Origin: Myxococcales bacterium
Lineage (GTDB): Bacteria > Myxococcota_A > Polyangia > Polyangiales > DASUME01
Length of the DNA stretch: 64,000 nt
Assembly: GCA_047601445.1 (NCBI GenBank)
Contig: JASGJH010000001.1
Location: forward strand, 6,048,001 to 6,112,000
Direction: 5' to 3'
Translations under genes and position numbers: made by a program
Notes under the pieces: model-generated
What the model was told of the DNA's origin: nothing
Databases searched by the model: none
Seen by the model: only the letters and a program-made list of their open reading frames with translations
Shown here: positions 4,055-61,385 of the stretch, piece after piece
Layout: the number at the start of each line of letters is the position of its first letter
Numbering within the stretch: position 1 is the stretch's first letter

Positions 4055-5089
4055 CTAAAAGTTGAATACGCCGGGTCGCGGTAGCTCACCTCGCACGAAC
4101 ATCTCGAGGCGCGAGTCGCGGAACAACAGCGGGATCACGGCGGACAGGGTACTGGTCAGGGTGGGCGCGCCGGCGATCAAGACCCAGGGCTGGTCGGTCA
4201 TGGCGGCTCCAGCGCTGACGGTGACGAGCGTCAACAAGCCCGCGATCAGCGCGACGCCGGCCTTGGCGCGCGTGCGGTGGTCGCTTTCGATCAAGAGCTC
4301 GGTGGCTGCTCGCGGGCGCGCTGCCACTGGGCGCCCGAAGTACGTGTCGTAGACCTGCTGACCGACGCCGCGATCGAGGAACGCGAGGGGGATGGTCCAC
4401 AAGAACTGGCTCGCCAGGGCGGCGCCGAAGAACACGCTGGCCACACGCTCGTCGTGGGTGCCGTGGTTGCCATCGCGGTCTGACCAATCGAAGCAGAAGC
4501 TGGTGGAGAGCGTGGCGGCGCCCAGTGCGAAGCCGGTATACGCCCACGGCGTCGCGCGCTCGGGCGGCAACAGCAGGCCCAGGGCGACGGCCGCGCTGAA
4601 GGGCACGATGGAGGAGCCCATCATCCAGCGTGGTGTCTTGGCCTCGACCTCATCGAGAGAAAGCAGCAAGCCGGCCGTGGCGATCATCGCGCCCGACATG
4701 ATCACGGACATCCAGCGACCGCCGGTGCGGCGCTCGTGTTCCTTGCGAGCCATCTCCTGGATCCAGGCATCCGCGCGCTCCGCATCCGCGACCAACGTGG
4801 CATCGAGCTGAGGCTCGGGAAGGGGCCCAGGTGCTGGCAACACCGCGGGTGGGGTCACGACGAGGGGCAGCGGCTCGGTGCTGGGAGGCGGCGTCGGCGT
4901 GCGATCGGAGCTCGGAGGTGTGAGCAGCGGGTCGCCGGGCACGGGGGGAGTGTCGGTGACCGGGGCAGGGCCCAAGTCCGCTGCAGGGGCGAGGACTTGG
5001 TCAGGTGCGACTTCAGCCGGCACGACGTCTTGGGCCGACACCGGCTGCACGCACCAGAGCAAGACGAGGAAGAACGTAAGGAAGTGCAT
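4055..5089 (-). CDS. Hypothetical membrane protein (signal peptide, Pro-rich linker, several TM helices)
   Basis: N-terminal hydrophobic signal ending VSA-Q, Pro-rich region, multiple hydrophobic segments. Confidence 0.65.
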   Translation of the reverse strand: MHFLTFFLVLLWCVQPVSAQDVVPAEVAPDQVLAPAADLGPAPVTDTPPVPGDPLLTPPSSDRTPTPPPSTEPLPLVVTPPAVLPAPGPLPEPQLDATLVADAERADAWIQEMARKEHERRTGGRWMSVIMSGAMIATAGLLLSLDEVEAKTPRWMMGSSIVPFSAAVALGLLLPPERATPWAYTGFALGAATLSTSFCFDWSDRDGNHGTHDERVASVFFGAALASQFLWTIPLAFLDRGVGQQVYDTYFGRPVAARPRAATELLIESDHRTRAKAGVALIAGLLTLVTVSAGAAMTDQPWVLIAGAPTLTSTLSAVIPLLFRDSRLEMFVRGELPRPGVFNF

Positions 5090-5192
5090 TGGAGGCGGCA
5101 CGATAGAAGTTGAGGGAGGGAGCTGTCCACCGGGGGATTTCGAGGGCTGTGGGCGGGGGGCAATTCACCTTTAAATTGATTGGTTTCGTCGC

Positions 5193-5408
5193 CGTCGCCG
5201 TCGCCGTCAACCGCTGCGCTGACCACGTCAACGTCAACCGCTGGCGCTGACCACGTCAACGGGAGCCAATCCCAGTCGGCTTACCAGGTTCCGAATACGG
5301 GATCGGATCGGAAGCCGAGAGCAGCGCGAGCCTGCCCACGTTGACGTTGTCAGCGCCAGCGGTTGACGTCGACGTGGTCAGCGCAGGCGGTTGCGGGCGA
5401 CGGCGACG
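5193..5408. repeat. ~70-bp inverted repeat (arms 5193-5261 and 5339-5408) with a 77-bp spacer
   Basis: Arms are reverse complements with about 5 differences; each arm contains a ~27-nt direct repeat gtcaaccgct(g)gcgctgaccacgtcaac. Confidence 0.85.
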
Positions 5409-56880: not shown

Positions 56881-58014
56881 TCACTTGTTCCCGCGGCGCG
56901 CGCCGCGGTGTCGAAGCGCACCCTCGGGTGCGCGAGCGGATGATGAACGGGCACCCTCGGGCGCGCGAGCGGATGATGAACGGGCACCCTCGGGCGCGCG
57001 AGCGGATGGTGAACGGGCACCCTCGGGTGCGCGAGCGGATGATGAACGGGCACCCTCGGGTGCGCGAGCGACAGACGAACGTTCCGCCGTGACGCGGGGC
57101 CTTTCGGCCTCGGCGAGCACGACGCGAAGATGGGGTTTACGTGCCTCTTTGCAGGCGATCTCGGCGCGCGACACAGCGAGGCCCGCGTCCTGGAGCAGGG
57201 CCCGCAGTTTGCGCGCGGAGAAGCCAGGGTGGAGCAGCCCGTAGGCGGCGCTGATCTCGTGCTCGTCGTGGCGGTCCAGGCACAGCAGCACCACCCGGCC
57301 CCCGGGACGCAGTACCCGCGCGCACTCCGAGAGCGCCCGCGCAGGATGTTCTGCATAGGTGAGCGTGTGAAAGAGCAGCACGTCGTCGAAGCTCTCGTCC
57401 GGGAACGGCAGCGCTTCCACGTCAGCGGCCTGAACCCGTGCATGGGCGTGGCCCGAGAGCCGATCGCCGGCAGCCTGGATGGCCCGCTCGTCGTTGTCGA
57501 TGCACGTCAGCGTGCGGCAATAGGGCGCGAGCACGCTGGCCACGGTGCCGTCTCCGCAGCCCACGTCGAGCACGTCGCCCAGGCGCAGCAGCGAGGCCGC
57601 GCCGAGCGCGAGCGACTGCCAGGTGCGGCCAGGAGAGTAGTCACGGTCGAGCTCGAGGATCGCCGACTCGGGCAGACCCTCGTGTCGCTCGGCGTCGAGC
57701 GCGGCCAGACGCTCGCGGTCCGCTTTCAACGTGCGATCCGAGGAGGTGGACACCTCCAGCAGGAGTCCGCGCACGGTCTCGGTCATGCCGTCGCGGGCCA
57801 GTCCGTAGAACGCCTGCGCGCCGTTGCGCCGATGCCTGAGGAGCCCCGCTTCACGTAGCCGGGCCAGGTGGGTGGAGACGCGCGATTGGGCCATGCCGGT
57901 GACCCGCACCAACTCCGAGACGCACAGCTCCCGCTCCGCCAGCAGCGCGCACAGCCGCAGCCGGTTTTCGTCTCCGAGCAGGCTCAGGGCCTCGGCGTAG
58001 TTGCCCAGTTCCAC
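56881..58014 (-). CDS. ArsR-family HTH plus SAM-dependent methyltransferase-like regulator (SahR/SamR type)
   Basis: RLRL..LL...EL.V.EL, QSRVSTHL..L.EAG; YSPGRTW; VLDVGCGDG; RVLRPGG; 3 bp upstream of metH. Confidence 0.88.
   Translation of the reverse strand: MELGNYAEALSLLGDENRLRLCALLAERELCVSELVRVTGMAQSRVSTHLARLREAGLLRHRRNGAQAFYGLARDGMTETVRGLLLEVSTSSDRTLKADRERLAALDAERHEGLPESAILELDRDYSPGRTWQSLALGAASLLRLGDVLDVGCGDGTVASVLAPYCRTLTCIDNDERAIQAAGDRLSGHAHARVQAADVEALPFPDESFDDVLLFHTLTYAEHPARALSECARVLRPGGRVVLLCLDRHDEHEISAAYGLLHPGFSARKLRALLQDAGLAVSRAEIACKEARKPHLRVVLAEAERPRVTAERSSVARAPEGARSSSARAPEGARSPSARAPEGARSSSARAPEGARSSSARAPEGALRHRGARRGNK
56918..57082. repeat. Five tandem 33-bp repeats within the 3' end of the ArsR-methyltransferase gene
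   Basis: Unit gcaccctcgggtgcgcgagcggatgatgaacgg starting at 56918, 56951, 56984, 57017 and 57050 (last degenerate); encodes (SSARAPEGARS)n. Confidence 0.95.
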
Positions 58015-58519: not shown

Positions 58520-59125
58520 ATGCGCACGAAGGGAGCAGCAGACGTTCGGAAGTGGAATTTGATCACCGTGGTGCCGATGGGCCTCGTGGTCTCGCTGGCC
58601 AGCGCTTGTGCCGGAGGCGGCGGTCAAACGGGCGCGTCGGACGGCGACCAGGAGGGGACCAAAGAGCCCTTCGTCCAGAAGAGCCAGACCCAGACGGACG
58701 ATGCCGCCGTGCCTACGCCACCAGAGTTCGATCCATGCGCAGACGACCCCTGCGAGCACGACGGAGTGTGCAGGGTCGACAACGATTTCTACGTATGCGC
58801 CTGCAGCAGCGGCTGGACCGGCGAGAACTGCGAGGAGCCTGCGCCTCCGCTCACCACCCTCGTGGTGGACCCGCCTGCATGCGAGCCCGCCTGCCAAAAC
58901 GGGGGCGAGTGCGTAGACGGCGCTTGCGTGTGTCCCGAGGGCTGCTCGGGCGTGGCCTGCGAGATCATCGATCCACCGAACGTCCAGCCTGACGATCCCT
59001 GTGCCAGCCAGCCCTGCTCGAACGGCGGCTTTTGCGTGGTCAGCGGCGAGTCCTTCAGCTGCGCCTGTCCCGAGGGCTTCAGTGGCCCAACCTGTGAGCT
59101 TGAGGAAGAGCCCTGCGAGGAGTGA
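58520..59125 (+). CDS. Putative lipoprotein with three EGF-like domains
   Basis: RBS GGGGAG; hydrophobic segment ending ASAC; DPC...PC..G.C......C.C..GW/FxG..CE twice plus one shorter EGF-like unit. Confidence 0.8.
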   Translation: MRTKGAADVRKWNLITVVPMGLVVSLASACAGGGGQTGASDGDQEGTKEPFVQKSQTQTDDAAVPTPPEFDPCADDPCEHDGVCRVDNDFYVCACSSGWTGENCEEPAPPLTTLVVDPPACEPACQNGGECVDGACVCPEGCSGVACEIIDPPNVQPDDPCASQPCSNGGFCVVSGESFSCACPEGFSGPTCELEEEPCEE

Positions 59126-59130
59126 GCCGT

Positions 59131-60021
59131 TCAGCGCTCGCCCGGCAGCAGGCCCTTCCAGAGTCCTCGCTGCACGCTGTCCGATAGCCACGCGCTCGCG
59201 TGGGCCAGCAGCTCGGTCCGTTCTGCGGCGCTCGCCGCTTGCTCGAGCACACCCAGGGCACTCTCGAGCGGGCGCGCCCGCAGCTCCTGTAGGAGCTTGG
59301 CCCGCAGGGTCGGCAGCGGCGTCGCGAGGATGCCCCGCGCGGCCGTGGAGATCAGCCAGTGGGTCTCCCGGTCGTGCGAAGGCGGGAGCGGCACCGCGGC
59401 GTCCTGGCTGCGCGCGAGCACGCTATCTCGCAGCGCGACCAGGGGCCAAGACTCGGATACCAGCGCCCAGTTGTCGGCGGGCACGAGTCGCGCCGAAGGG
59501 AGCAACCGCGCGTGCTCGTTCGTGAACGCGAAGCCCGCCTCGAGTGGTGCACGGATCACCTCGCGAAACGCTTGATCGATGCGCACGGCTTCGAGCAGGG
59601 CTCGGCTCGCCAGGCTGGTGCCACCGGGCAGTGGGACCTCGGCCTCGGTCAGCGCCCGCGCCATGAATCCATCGAAGCCGTCTCCGGCCGCGTGGATATC
59701 GAAGTGACGCGGCGGGTGCAGCGCGAGAAACCTTGCGGCGTAGTCGTTGAACGTCCACAGACCGAGCAGGTGCGCCGTGAGTGGATACTCGCGCTGCAGT
59801 ACGTCGAGCAGGCGAAACCAGTATTGTCGCTGGTAGGCCGCGATGCGCTCGCGGGCGCCGAGCTCGGGCCCGTCCGCCAGGGGTTCCACGCCGGCCAGCG
59901 GATAGTCCTCCGGATCCGCGCGCAACCTGCCCTCGCCGCGCTGCAGCGGGCGCCGCAGCACTTGGCTGAAGCGCGCTTGCAGCTCGGCCAACCAGCGCTG
60001 GGTTTCGGGTGCGCTCCTCAT
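59131..60021 (-). CDS. DUF2063-domain partner protein of MNIO (HvfC/BufC-like)
   Basis: LQ..F...L, ERI..Y..QYW.RL...L...YP....LLG...F......FL..HPP; ATGA overlap with the DUF692 stop. Confidence 0.82.
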   Translation of the reverse strand: MRSAPETQRWLAELQARFSQVLRRPLQRGEGRLRADPEDYPLAGVEPLADGPELGARERIAAYQRQYWFRLLDVLQREYPLTAHLLGLWTFNDYAARFLALHPPRHFDIHAAGDGFDGFMARALTEAEVPLPGGTSLASRALLEAVRIDQAFREVIRAPLEAGFAFTNEHARLLPSARLVPADNWALVSESWPLVALRDSVLARSQDAAVPLPPSHDRETHWLISTAARGILATPLPTLRAKLLQELRARPLESALGVLEQAASAAERTELLAHASAWLSDSVQRGLWKGLLPGER

Positions 60022-60851
60022 GCCCTCACCGTGCGCGCTTTCTCGAGCTCTTCCATCACCTCGGGCAGTGACGGGATGGCAGCATCCCATTCGAGCAAAG
60101 TCGGGAAGGGACCGTGGACTCGATAGGCATCGCGATAGAGCGACCACACGGCGTCGCTCACGGGGCGATCGTGGGTGTCGACGATGGTCCCGTCGGGCTC
60201 GCGCGAGTGGCCGGCCAAATGGACCTGGAGCACGCGATCGAAGTCGATGGCGTCGAGGTAAGTACGGGGATCGAAGCCGTGGTTGACGCTGGATACGTAG
60301 ATGTTGTTGATGTCCAACATGAAGTAGCAGCCCGATTCGCGCACGACCGCCGCGTAGAACTCCCACTCGCTCAAGCTGGATTCGCGAAAGCTCACGTAGC
60401 TCGAGAGGTTCTCCAACCCAAAGGGGCGGCCCAGCTGCGCCTGGACGCGCTGGGCCCGAGCGGCCGCGAACTCGACCAACTCGGGCACGTAGGGCGTAGG
60501 TAGGAGGTCGTGATGCGTGAGGCCATGGGCCCCGGTCCAACACAGGTGGTCCGAGACGAAGCGCGCGTCGACCTGGGCGGCCAGGCTCGTCAGGCGCCCC
60601 AGGTAATCGGGATCCAGCTCGGCGTGTCCGAGGAGATTGAGACCCACACCGTGCAACACCAGGGGATAGCGCGCCTGCACACGCTCGAGCTTCTGGCGGG
60701 GTAGGGCGGCATCGCCCATGAAGTTTTCGCTCAAAACCTCGAAGTAATCGACCGGCGGCCAGTGCTCGAACAGATGCGCATAGTGTGCTGCGCGCAGCCC
60801 GAGCCCGAGCGCGTCGCGCGGGAGCGTGGGGCGTGGCGTCGCCGAGGACAT
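60018..60851 (-). CDS. DUF692 multinuclear non-heme iron-dependent oxidative enzyme (MNIO; MbnB/TglH/ChrH/BufB family)
   Basis: GLGLR..H, FEV.SENF, LHGVGL, SDHLCW, HDLLP.P, LEN, LD.NN.YV...NH, HLAGH, DTH, LLEWD. Confidence 0.93.
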   Translation of the reverse strand: MSSATPRPTLPRDALGLGLRAAHYAHLFEHWPPVDYFEVLSENFMGDAALPRQKLERVQARYPLVLHGVGLNLLGHAELDPDYLGRLTSLAAQVDARFVSDHLCWTGAHGLTHHDLLPTPYVPELVEFAAARAQRVQAQLGRPFGLENLSSYVSFRESSLSEWEFYAAVVRESGCYFMLDINNIYVSSVNHGFDPRTYLDAIDFDRVLQVHLAGHSREPDGTIVDTHDRPVSDAVWSLYRDAYRVHGPFPTLLEWDAAIPSLPEVMEELEKARTVRA

Positions 60852-60926
60852 CGACTTCACTGTCGCACGGCCGAGCTGTCGGTGCCCGCTGTTGATTTCC
60901 GCGCGTTTCACGTTCATTCTCGCGCC

Positions 60927-61385
60927 ATGACCGGTCGTTCCGATTTCGACACCATGCGTATTCCCGATATCCGCTCGAGCGCCCAGGGGCCCGCTTCGAC
61001 GACCCTCGAGACCGCTGCTCCCCGAGTGCCCGAGGCGCCCAGCGCGAGCGCACCGCTGCTGGCGGCGGCCATCGGTGGCCTCCTGTGTCTGACGGCCTGC
61101 GGGTCGGATGGGTCCAGCGGGTCGGCCGATACGGGCGACTCGGGCGAGCCGGAGGAAAGGGTCGTCACCCTCGAGCGCGTGGATCCCGACATGACCGAAC
61201 AGCGCTTCAAGGACGCCTGCGACGTCGCCATGGGAACCATGGAGACGCATCCGCACTGCGGCGGCATGAACTCGTGCAGGGGCTTCTCCTACGACCGCAC
61301 GACCCAGGTCTACAGCGAGCACACGTGCAAGCAGCTGAATAACTGCACGGGGTGGAGCTGCGTAGTGCCGGAGGAGAAGGGGTAG
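60927..61385 (+). CDS. Cys-rich lipoprotein, candidate MNIO substrate (bufferin-like precursor)
   Basis: h-region LLAAAIGGLLCLTAC; G/S/D linker; HPHCGGMNSCRG and EHTCKQLNNCTG motifs; 75 bp from the divergent DUF692 start; alternative start at 60954. Confidence 0.72.
   Translation: MTGRSDFDTMRIPDIRSSAQGPASTTLETAAPRVPEAPSASAPLLAAAIGGLLCLTACGSDGSSGSADTGDSGEPEERVVTLERVDPDMTEQRFKDACDVAMGTMETHPHCGGMNSCRGFSYDRTTQVYSEHTCKQLNNCTGWSCVVPEEKG

What the first reader, a model, noticed from the sequence alone, without database searches (positions are those of the whole stretch)
59131..61385. MNIO (DUF692)/DUF2063 RiPP system with a divergent lipoprotein precursor
Seen: coupled DUF692 and DUF2063 genes. Only 75 bp away on the opposite strand is a ~150-aa ORF with lipobox LTAC, a flexible linker and a six-Cys domain with two H-x-C-x3-N-x-C-x-G motifs. 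No DoxX or ECF sigma/anti-sigma genes are adjacent. Known: MNIOs with DUF2063 partners convert Cys in secreted precursors (bufferins, oxazolins) into thiooxazole-type heterocycles that bind copper, and their precursors are usually co-directional and soluble. Inference: a variant in which the modified product is a membrane-anchored metal-binding protein with His next to the target Cys. I do not recognise it as described.
Basis: partly seen in the sequence, partly recalled or inferred. Interest (0 to 1): 0.85.

Follow-up and report, generated by a model that had tools for sequence, protein, structure and literature searches.

The report
Rearranged lipid-anchored bufferin-like copper protein
A myxobacterial gene for a predicted membrane-anchored protein with six cysteines faces away from an enzyme pair that likely converts four of those cysteines into copper-binding rings; lipid-anchored versions of such proteins are already published, but this one belongs to an uncatalogued, rearranged family whose relatives often carry a haem domain.

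Summary
The three genes are real: a bufferin-type MNIO (60018-60851, above the BufB cut-off), a DUF2063 partner (59131-60021) and, 75 bp away on the other strand, a 152-aa predicted lipoprotein (60927-61385). The lipoprotein belongs to a Myxococcota family with a ~70-aa six-Cys domain related to BufA2 but rearranged (Cys spacing 13-6-17-6-5 against 6-6-7-6-13; 20.6 bits against a cut-off of 60). The family tracks one MNIO clade, so it is the likely substrate, although 3 near-complete genomes hold the domain without that clade's partner. About 16% of Buf2 precursors are predicted lipoproteins, Buf2 clusters lack sigma genes, and the model buf2 cluster lacks DoxX. His two residues before a Cys occurs in 11 of 29 ordinary BufA2. 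The divergent layout is rare (3 of 54 plain loci; 39 are tail-to-tail). What I did not find in print: the rearranged domain, the opposite-strand layout, and fusion to cytochrome c in 59 of 154 relatives. Modification, copper binding and any redox role are untested. This scan had already noted the family in other genomes. Verdict: new variant of a known kind, interest 0.5.

The parts
59131..60021 (-). DUF2063 (PME1/BufC-type) partner protein, 296 aa
   Evidence: PF09836 54.2 bits, cut-off 27.2; 4-bp overlap with the MNIO stop
60018..60851 (-). MNIO (DUF692), bufferin-maturase type, 277 aa; keeps H67, H102, E147, D180, H211, D225, H227, E254 and D256
   Evidence: PF05114 326 bits; NF050167 319.2 against 310; HvfB model 239.5 against 360. 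Residues invariant in 43 of 43 family-linked MNIOs. Their role as iron ligands is recalled from MbnB/TglH, not from a call.
60852..60926 (.). 75-bp divergent intergenic region; presumably overlapping promoters (inferred)
   Evidence: no sigma-70 consensus found; no telling repeat
60927..61385 (+). Predicted lipoprotein precursor, 152 aa
   Evidence: start supported by homologue P0003, which begins with the same five residues
61053..61100 (+). Hydrophobic signal region and lipobox ending in Cys58
   Evidence: mean hydropathy 2.26 over residues 44-57; Cys58 conserved in at least 90% of 36 aligned plain homologues; lipobox-like regex in 117 of 154 proteins; SignalP not available
61101..61160 (+). 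Ser/Gly/Asp-rich linker; very variable in length among relatives
61161..61370 (+). Six-Cys domain (residues 79-148), a rearranged BufA2 relative: strand, helix with C98, strand, two C-x3-N-x-C-x-G loops, last strand with C145
   Evidence: AF2 mean pLDDT 80.8; hhalign to canonical BufA2 94% over the motif core; all six Cys in 147 of 155 domains
61248..61283 (+). Motif 1: H108-x-x-C111-G-G-x-N115-x-C117-x-G
   Evidence: H108 103/155, C111 155/155, C117 149/155
61320..61352 (+). Motif 2: H132-x-C134-x-x-x-N138-x-C140-x-G
   Evidence: H132 148/155, C134 154/155, C140 155/155

Best explanation
The MNIO and DUF2063 genes encode a bufferin-type enzyme pair that likely oxidises the four inner cysteines of the divergently encoded lipoprotein to 5-thiooxazoles, giving a predicted membrane-tethered protein that would bind and buffer copper outside the cytoplasm. 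Shown here: the three genes, the enzyme family, the six-Cys domain, and its tie to one MNIO clade. Inferred from bufferin 1 and 2 chemistry: the pair acts in the cytoplasm (-4 Da per Cys, probably C111, C117, C134 and C140). The precursor is then exported by Sec, lipidated at C58, and closed by a C98-C145 disulfide. The rings, with H108 and H132 as possible extra ligands, would chelate Cu(I)/Cu(II). The precursor gene is a separate transcription unit that has moved around the enzyme pair in evolution, so the head-to-head layout itself is incidental.
For: (1) The MNIO passes the curated BufB cut-off. (2) The only family model hitting the Cys domain is BufA2 (E 4e-4), and the motif core aligns to 29 real BufA2 at 94% probability. 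(3) GTDB scan: MNIO and/or partner in 34 of 38 loci, adjacent in 33. Metagenomes: 44 of 55 loci adjacent, 9 too short to tell. (4) In cytochrome-fused relatives the domain sits in the classic precursor slot directly upstream of the MNIO in 14 of 21 order-level loci. (5) All 43 MNIOs next to or near the domain fall in one 46-row clade (SH-aLRT 97) apart from 28 canonical BufA2 MNIOs; the other 3 rows come from genomes whose precursor lies elsewhere. (6) In the genus, the 4 of 10 genomes with the precursor are the 4 of 10 with the clade partner. In the phylum sample, 14 of the 15 precursor genomes (of 401) are the 14 best partner hits. (7) This genome has one copy of the domain and one clade pair; its second MNIO has its own small upstream precursor candidate. 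(8) In Caulobacter Buf2 the first and last Cys are unmodified and likely disulfide-linked, and the central ones carry -4 Da shifts; Buf1 binds Cu (PMC11626156). (9) One relative lies next to an MbnP copper-protein gene.
Against: No biochemical or expression data. The precursor scores 20.6 bits against a BufA2 cut-off of 60, and the best of 28 relatives scores 26.6, so chemistry and site choice need not match Buf2. Six of 54 plain and 3 of 21 fused loci have no MNIO within at least 1.4 kb on either side. G292, G708 and G689 (95-97% complete) hold the domain but no clade partner, only other MNIOs. The partner profile A6 was built partly from the same genomes, which inflates their ranks, and kin are not independent. 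The tree is the quick tree; the careful search did not finish. The residue after the presumed catalytic Asp is Ala here, whereas Cys-Lys MNIOs are reported to have Asp. No copper-regulation gene is a recurrent neighbour.
Confidence: 0.6

Rival explanations
1. The domain is modified as above, but the metal site is a redox centre rather than a sponge: a thiooxazole/His copper site that exchanges electrons with a haem, fused in many relatives and supplied in trans here.
For: 59 of 154 relatives carry CxxCH after the domain; 19 of 20 such proteins scanned hit Pfam cytochrome c models. H132 and E131 are kept in both forms, and H108 is better kept in fused forms (83% against 59%). Fused forms occupy the deeper branches of the MNIO clade in the midpoint-rooted quick tree.
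Against: This genome encodes no fused form, and no cytochrome gene recurs beside plain loci. Buf1-cytochrome c fusions are already listed without any function shown. No redox data.
Confidence: 0.2
2. The lipoprotein is the substrate, but the product differs from bufferin: another Cys modification, another subset of Cys, or a metal other than copper.
For: Cys spacing and element order differ from BufA2; the MNIOs form their own clade; C117 is replaced in 6 of 155 domains; MerC-Buf fusions suggest other metals for some bufferins.
Against: The MNIO passes the BufB cut-off, and MNIO plus DUF2063 pairs are reported to install 5-thiooxazoles broadly (abstract and sections of 10.1101/2025.11.18.689057).
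Confidence: 0.12
3. The lipoprotein is an unmodified disulfide or metal-binding protein that merely neighbours the MNIO, whose substrate is something else, for example the EGF-repeat lipoprotein ending 5 bp from the partner gene.
For: The opposite strand breaks the strict bufABC order. In G005 the orthologue sits beside acnB without the MNIO. Three genomes lack the clade partner. The EGF gene fills the tail-to-tail slot that the precursor occupies in relatives.
Against: Linkage persists in four different layouts, including the canonical upstream slot. G005 still carries the clade pair elsewhere. The EGF protein has no homologue among 438 candidate ORFs of the related loci.
Confidence: 0.08

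Closest known systems
Bufferin 2 system, Caulobacter vibrioides bufA2B2C2 (Buf_6/12Cys; NF050166/NF050167; PMC11626156, PMC12452194)
   Same: BufB-type MNIO plus DUF2063 partner; exported six-Cys precursor with two C-x-G-x-N-x-C-x-G-type motifs; no DoxX or sigma gene in the cluster; some members are lipoproteins.
   Different: Precursor far below the family cut-off. Cys spacing is 13-6-17-6-5 against 6-6-7-6-13, and the helix Cys comes before the motif loops instead of after them. His-x-Cys is near-invariant (148/155 against 11/29). The gene is on the opposite strand, the MNIOs form a separate clade, and many relatives are cytochrome c fusions.
DAG-RiPPs (DybA, NedA; PMC13056109)
   Same: MNIO substrate with a lipobox, predicted to be lipidated and membrane-anchored.
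   Different: DybA is a ChrH-type macrocycle and NedA an EGKCG oxazolin; neither motif is present here. Whether this family is in that paper's Table S6 could not be checked.
Captophorins, Cys-Lys group (10.1101/2025.11.18.689057)
   Same: MNIO + DUF2063 (PME1) + Cys-rich precursor.
   Different: Only part of the Cys are followed by Lys/Arg, and the specificity position after the Asp is Ala in this enzyme.
Buf1|Cytochrom_C fusions (PMC12452194)
   Same: A bufferin-type domain joined to a c-type haem domain, as in many relatives of this protein.
   Different: Those are DUF2282 (four-Cys) domains and rare; the passages read list no Buf2-type cytochrome fusion. The window's own protein has no haem domain.

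Membership tests
Bufferin 2 (Buf_6/12Cys) | BufB-type MNIO | tested here: met
   NF050167 319.2 against 310; four clade relatives score 282-315, one of them above the cut-off
Bufferin 2 (Buf_6/12Cys) | DUF2063 partner coupled to the MNIO | tested here: met
   PF09836 54.2 against 27.2; 4-bp overlap
Bufferin 2 (Buf_6/12Cys) | Exported precursor with six conserved Cys | tested here: met
   six Cys in 147 of 155 domains; lipobox by motif and conservation
Bufferin 2 (Buf_6/12Cys) | Precursor matches the BufA2 profile and Cys spacing | tested here: not met
   20.6 bits against 60; spacing 13-6-17-6-5 against 6-6-7-6-13. The Buf_6/12Cys HMM of Antoine et al. was not available.
Bufferin 2 (Buf_6/12Cys) | Gene order bufABC on one strand | tested here: not met
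   divergent here; met in 14 of 21 cytochrome-fused loci but 0 of 54 plain order-level loci
Bufferin 2 (Buf_6/12Cys) | Central Cys converted to 5-thiooxazoles; copper binding and induction | not testable with these tools
   needs expression, MS, NMR
Bufferin 2 (Buf_6/12Cys) | Same fold as BufA2 | tested here: inconclusive
Bufferin 1 (DUF2282) | DUF2282 domain with four Cys | tested here: not met
   no Pfam hit at E<=1
Oxazolin / EGKCG (Lys-Cys captophorins) | Repeated EGKCG motifs and HvfB-type MNIO | tested here: not met
   motif absent; HvfB model 239.5 against 360
Captophorins (MNIO-PME1 class) | MNIO + DUF2063 partner + Cys-rich precursor at one locus | tested here: met
   criteria
Captophorins (MNIO-PME1 class) | 5-thiooxazole product associated with copper | not testable with these tools
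   experimental
DAG-RiPP | Lipoprotein (SPII) signal on the MNIO precursor | tested here: met
   lipobox and hydrophobic region conserved; SignalP itself not run
DAG-RiPP | Actual diacylglyceryl lipidation plus MNIO modification | not testable with these tools
   experimental

The most novel reading that the evidence does not exclude
This family is an MNIO-built copper redox site: a rearranged bufferin scaffold whose thiooxazole rings and conserved His form an electron-transfer centre, wired to a c-type haem in about 40% of members and working as a stand-alone, membrane-tethered carrier here. That would make an MNIO modification a protein-derived redox cofactor and not just a metal sponge.
Probability: 0.2. 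Interest if true: 0.8.

Novelty: new variant of a known kind. Interest (0 to 1): 0.5.

Why it matters
The published survey I read took precursors from the gene preceding the MNIO (PMC12452194). A family whose plain members lie on the opposite strand or elsewhere in the genome would be missed or left unassigned, so some 'orphan' MNIO-DUF2063 pairs may be explained by it. The rearranged domain is a natural test of how BufBC-type enzymes choose Cys and of whether His joins the thiooxazole copper site. The cytochrome fusions, present in named cultured species (Cystobacter fuscus, Oligoflexus tunisiensis), make it testable whether such sites carry electrons. The membrane anchor, the missing DoxX and sigma genes and the divergent layout are not important by themselves.

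Tried and rejected
Structure: PDB sequence search gave one weak, unrelated hit (E 0.009). Foldseek gave none at E<=0.001, the wide structural search best Z 3.9, and the ESM Atlas no usable feature hit. None of this shows a new fold. No complex of the three proteins was predicted because the queue was full. Strict circular permutation of BufA2: hhalign gives the out-of-order helix match only 2% probability (E 0.024), so I claim 'rearranged', not 'permuted'. A clade-specific specificity residue after the catalytic Asp was not found (A15/D10/E7 of 34 against D16/E6/A4 of 28). No sigma-70 promoter or informative repeat in the 75-bp gap. No conserved fourth gene: beyond the three genes only DUF3570 recurs, in 4 loci. 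The EGF lipoprotein as a family component was rejected. Sequencing runs: none was listed. Cluster-member look-up could not be made. Divergent layout as the hallmark was rejected (3 of 54). The next tier of partner hits (G389, G294, G178, G183, G079) turned out to have a different H-x-C-x-G-x-N-x-C-K-G-L-G-G-C repeat precursor. Literature: six searches showed no description of this family in listings. Text search of PMC12452194 found no 'converg', 'opposite' or 'Myxococc'; its two held supplements (one cut when stored; the PDF too large to read) held neither of two family motifs.

Full report
1. Observation. The window carries an MNIO gene at 60018-60851(-) (PF05114 326 bits; NCBIfam BufB 319.2 against cut-off 310) overlapping a DUF2063 gene at 59131-60021(-). 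After 75 bp a 152-aa ORF starts on the plus strand (60927-61385), with a lipobox at Cys58, a low-complexity linker and six further Cys. It has coding-like GC3, pN below pS in 5 of 5 homologue pairs, and it is the only one of 104,516 frames in the genome with two C-x3-N-x-C-x-G motifs. The nearest DoxX is about 100 kb away. The host belongs to the Myxococcota, judging by the titles of related records.

2. The precursor family. A profile search found 204 proteins at E<=0.001 and listed 150. No Pfam family matches the window protein; the only model on the Cys domain is BufA2 at 20.6 bits against 60, and the best of 28 relatives scanned reached 26.6. I took 29 canonical BufA2 from 30 loci of the same phylum. 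Their Cys spacing is 6-6-7-6-13 (24 of 29 exactly); the new domain has 13-6-17-6-5 (40 of 43, the rest with a longer third gap). hhalign matches the two-motif core at 94% probability, but the helix-Cys segment only out of order and weakly (2%). AF2 gives strand-helix-strand-loops-strand for the new domain (pLDDT 80.8) and strand-loops-strand-helix-strand for BufA2 (pLDDT 73.7). It is therefore a rearranged relative; strict circular permutation is suggested, not shown. Of 165 aligned domains, 155 spanned first to last Cys: 147 keep all six, 6 lose C117, H132 is kept in 148 and H108 in 103. His at -2 of the fourth Cys also occurs in 11 of 29 canonical BufA2, so the His neighbour is a fixed version of an existing option. 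In 59 of 154 proteins the domain is followed by CxxCH, and 19 of 20 such proteins scanned hit cytochrome c models. Named examples are in Cystobacter fuscus and Oligoflexus tunisiensis.

3. GTDB pattern scan: 34 of 38 loci hold the MNIO or partner; 33 are adjacent, of which 31 tail-to-tail, 1 head-to-head and 1 upstream on the same strand. Metagenome scan (plain forms only, redundant): 44 of 55 tail-to-tail, 2 without enzyme despite long flanks, 9 too short. Order-level search: 84 matches in 67 of 401 genomes, which I grouped by hand into 75 loci, counting two twice-fetched sites once. Of 54 plain loci, 39 are tail-to-tail, 2 tail-to-tail at a distance, 3 head-to-head (this genome, G008, G676), 2 downstream, 6 without enzyme within at least 1.4 kb each side and 2 cut by contig ends. 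Of 21 cytochrome-fused loci, 14 lie directly upstream in bufABC order, 1 further upstream, 2 downstream, 3 without enzyme and 1 cut. These three sets overlap and must not be summed. A tree of 86 MNIOs (partial genes and four duplicates left out; quick method, the careful search unfinished; row L120 mislabelled, it is a fusion 3 kb downstream) puts all 43 domain-linked enzymes in one 46-row clade (SH-aLRT 97), apart from 28 canonical BufA2 enzymes. The three extra rows come from G005, G010 and G012, whose precursor lies elsewhere. Presence and absence agree in the genus (the same 4 of 10) and in the phylum sample (14 of 15 precursor genomes are the top 14 partner hits of 401), though the partner profile included most of those genomes. 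Against: G292, G708 and G689 hold the domain but only other MNIO types; in all three the C117 position is lost, though that loss also occurs in MNIO-linked copies. In G005 the orthologue sits beside acnB, as here, without the enzyme pair. So the link is strong but not absolute, and the gene moves as an independent unit.

4. Mechanism. By analogy with Caulobacter Buf2, where the first and last Cys stay unmodified and the central ones lose 4 Da each, and with Buf1, which binds Cu through 2 N and 2 S (PMC11626156; passages, section 9), I infer cytoplasmic conversion of C111, C117, C134 and C140 to 5-thiooxazoles. Sec export, lipidation at C58, a C98-C145 disulfide and copper chelation at the membrane would follow, with H108 and H132 as possible ligands (0.6). 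The redox reading (0.2) rests on the cytochrome fusions, but this genome has none. Other chemistry or metal: 0.12. Not a substrate: 0.08. No step beyond the genes and their linkage was shown; no complex prediction could be run because the queue was full.

5. Comparison with print. PMC12452194 (parts 2 and 3 of 8 read, passages, two supplements searched): about 16% of Buf2 precursors are predicted lipoproteins, sigma and anti-sigma genes are absent from Buf2 clusters, bufABC order is called strictly conserved, precursors were collected from the gene preceding the MNIO, and Buf1-cytochrome c fusions are listed. PMC13056109 (passages only; supplements not seen): lipidated MNIO RiPPs, including bufferin-type precursors. 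10.1101/2025.11.18.689057 (abstract and sections 5, 11, 12): captophorin class and specificity residue. Other papers were seen as search listings only. Searches showed no account of this rearranged family, but unseen supplements may list it. It works like bufferin 2 but fails two membership features (profile and spacing; gene order), so I do not file it as a Buf2. Earlier notes of this scan describe the same family in other genomes; I saw them after stating my reading, and they are not independent evidence.

6. Verdict. Observation confirmed with one motif correction; interpretation partly supported. New variant of a known kind; interest 0.5. The most novel open reading, an MNIO-made redox copper site, has probability 0.2 and interest 0.8.

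Noticed in passing
window 58520-59125 (+): A 201-aa predicted lipoprotein with EGF repeats (PF00008 66 bits) ends 5 bp from the DUF2063 stop, in the tail-to-tail slot that the precursor fills in most relatives; no homologue in the related loci.
   Followed up: partly
L002 (own genome, C1 about 3,382,100-3,384,200): Second MNIO pair (below both BufB and HvfB cut-offs) with a co-directional 84-aa predicted lipoprotein carrying S-C-G-G motifs and matching no NCBIfam or Pfam model: another candidate lipid-anchored precursor.
   Followed up: partly
L152, L169-L171, L173: A separate MNIO-partner group has upstream precursors made of H-D/E-C-x-G-x-N-x-C-K-G-L-G-G-C repeats, some with lipoboxes; of two scanned, one scored 21.7 on the BufA2 model and one had no hit.
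   Followed up: partly
L132 446-7840: DUF3570 gene, cytochrome-fused precursor, MbnP copper-binding protein (TIGR04052 197.7 against 140), further lipoprotein genes, then the MNIO pair; DUF3570 also neighbours L120, L121 and L175.
   Followed up: partly
P0008, P0111: Proteins made of three or more tandem copies of the domain; context unknown.
   Followed up: no
P0115, P0143, L124-L127, L280, L281: A subgroup inserts a Cu-binding_MopE-type motif and an EF-hand-like loop before the six-Cys domain and cytochrome.
   Followed up: no
L014, L015, L027, L039: Two or three precursor paralogues in tandem facing one enzyme pair.
   Followed up: no
L050 about 5011-5214: Precursor frameshifted inside the domain and about 3.5 kb from the partner gene, with a short remnant next to the partner; may be an assembly error.
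   Followed up: no
window 56920-57080: Tandem repeat of about 33 bp at the 3' end of the ArsR-methyltransferase gene upstream of metH, giving repeated ARAPEGARSSS units.
   Followed up: no
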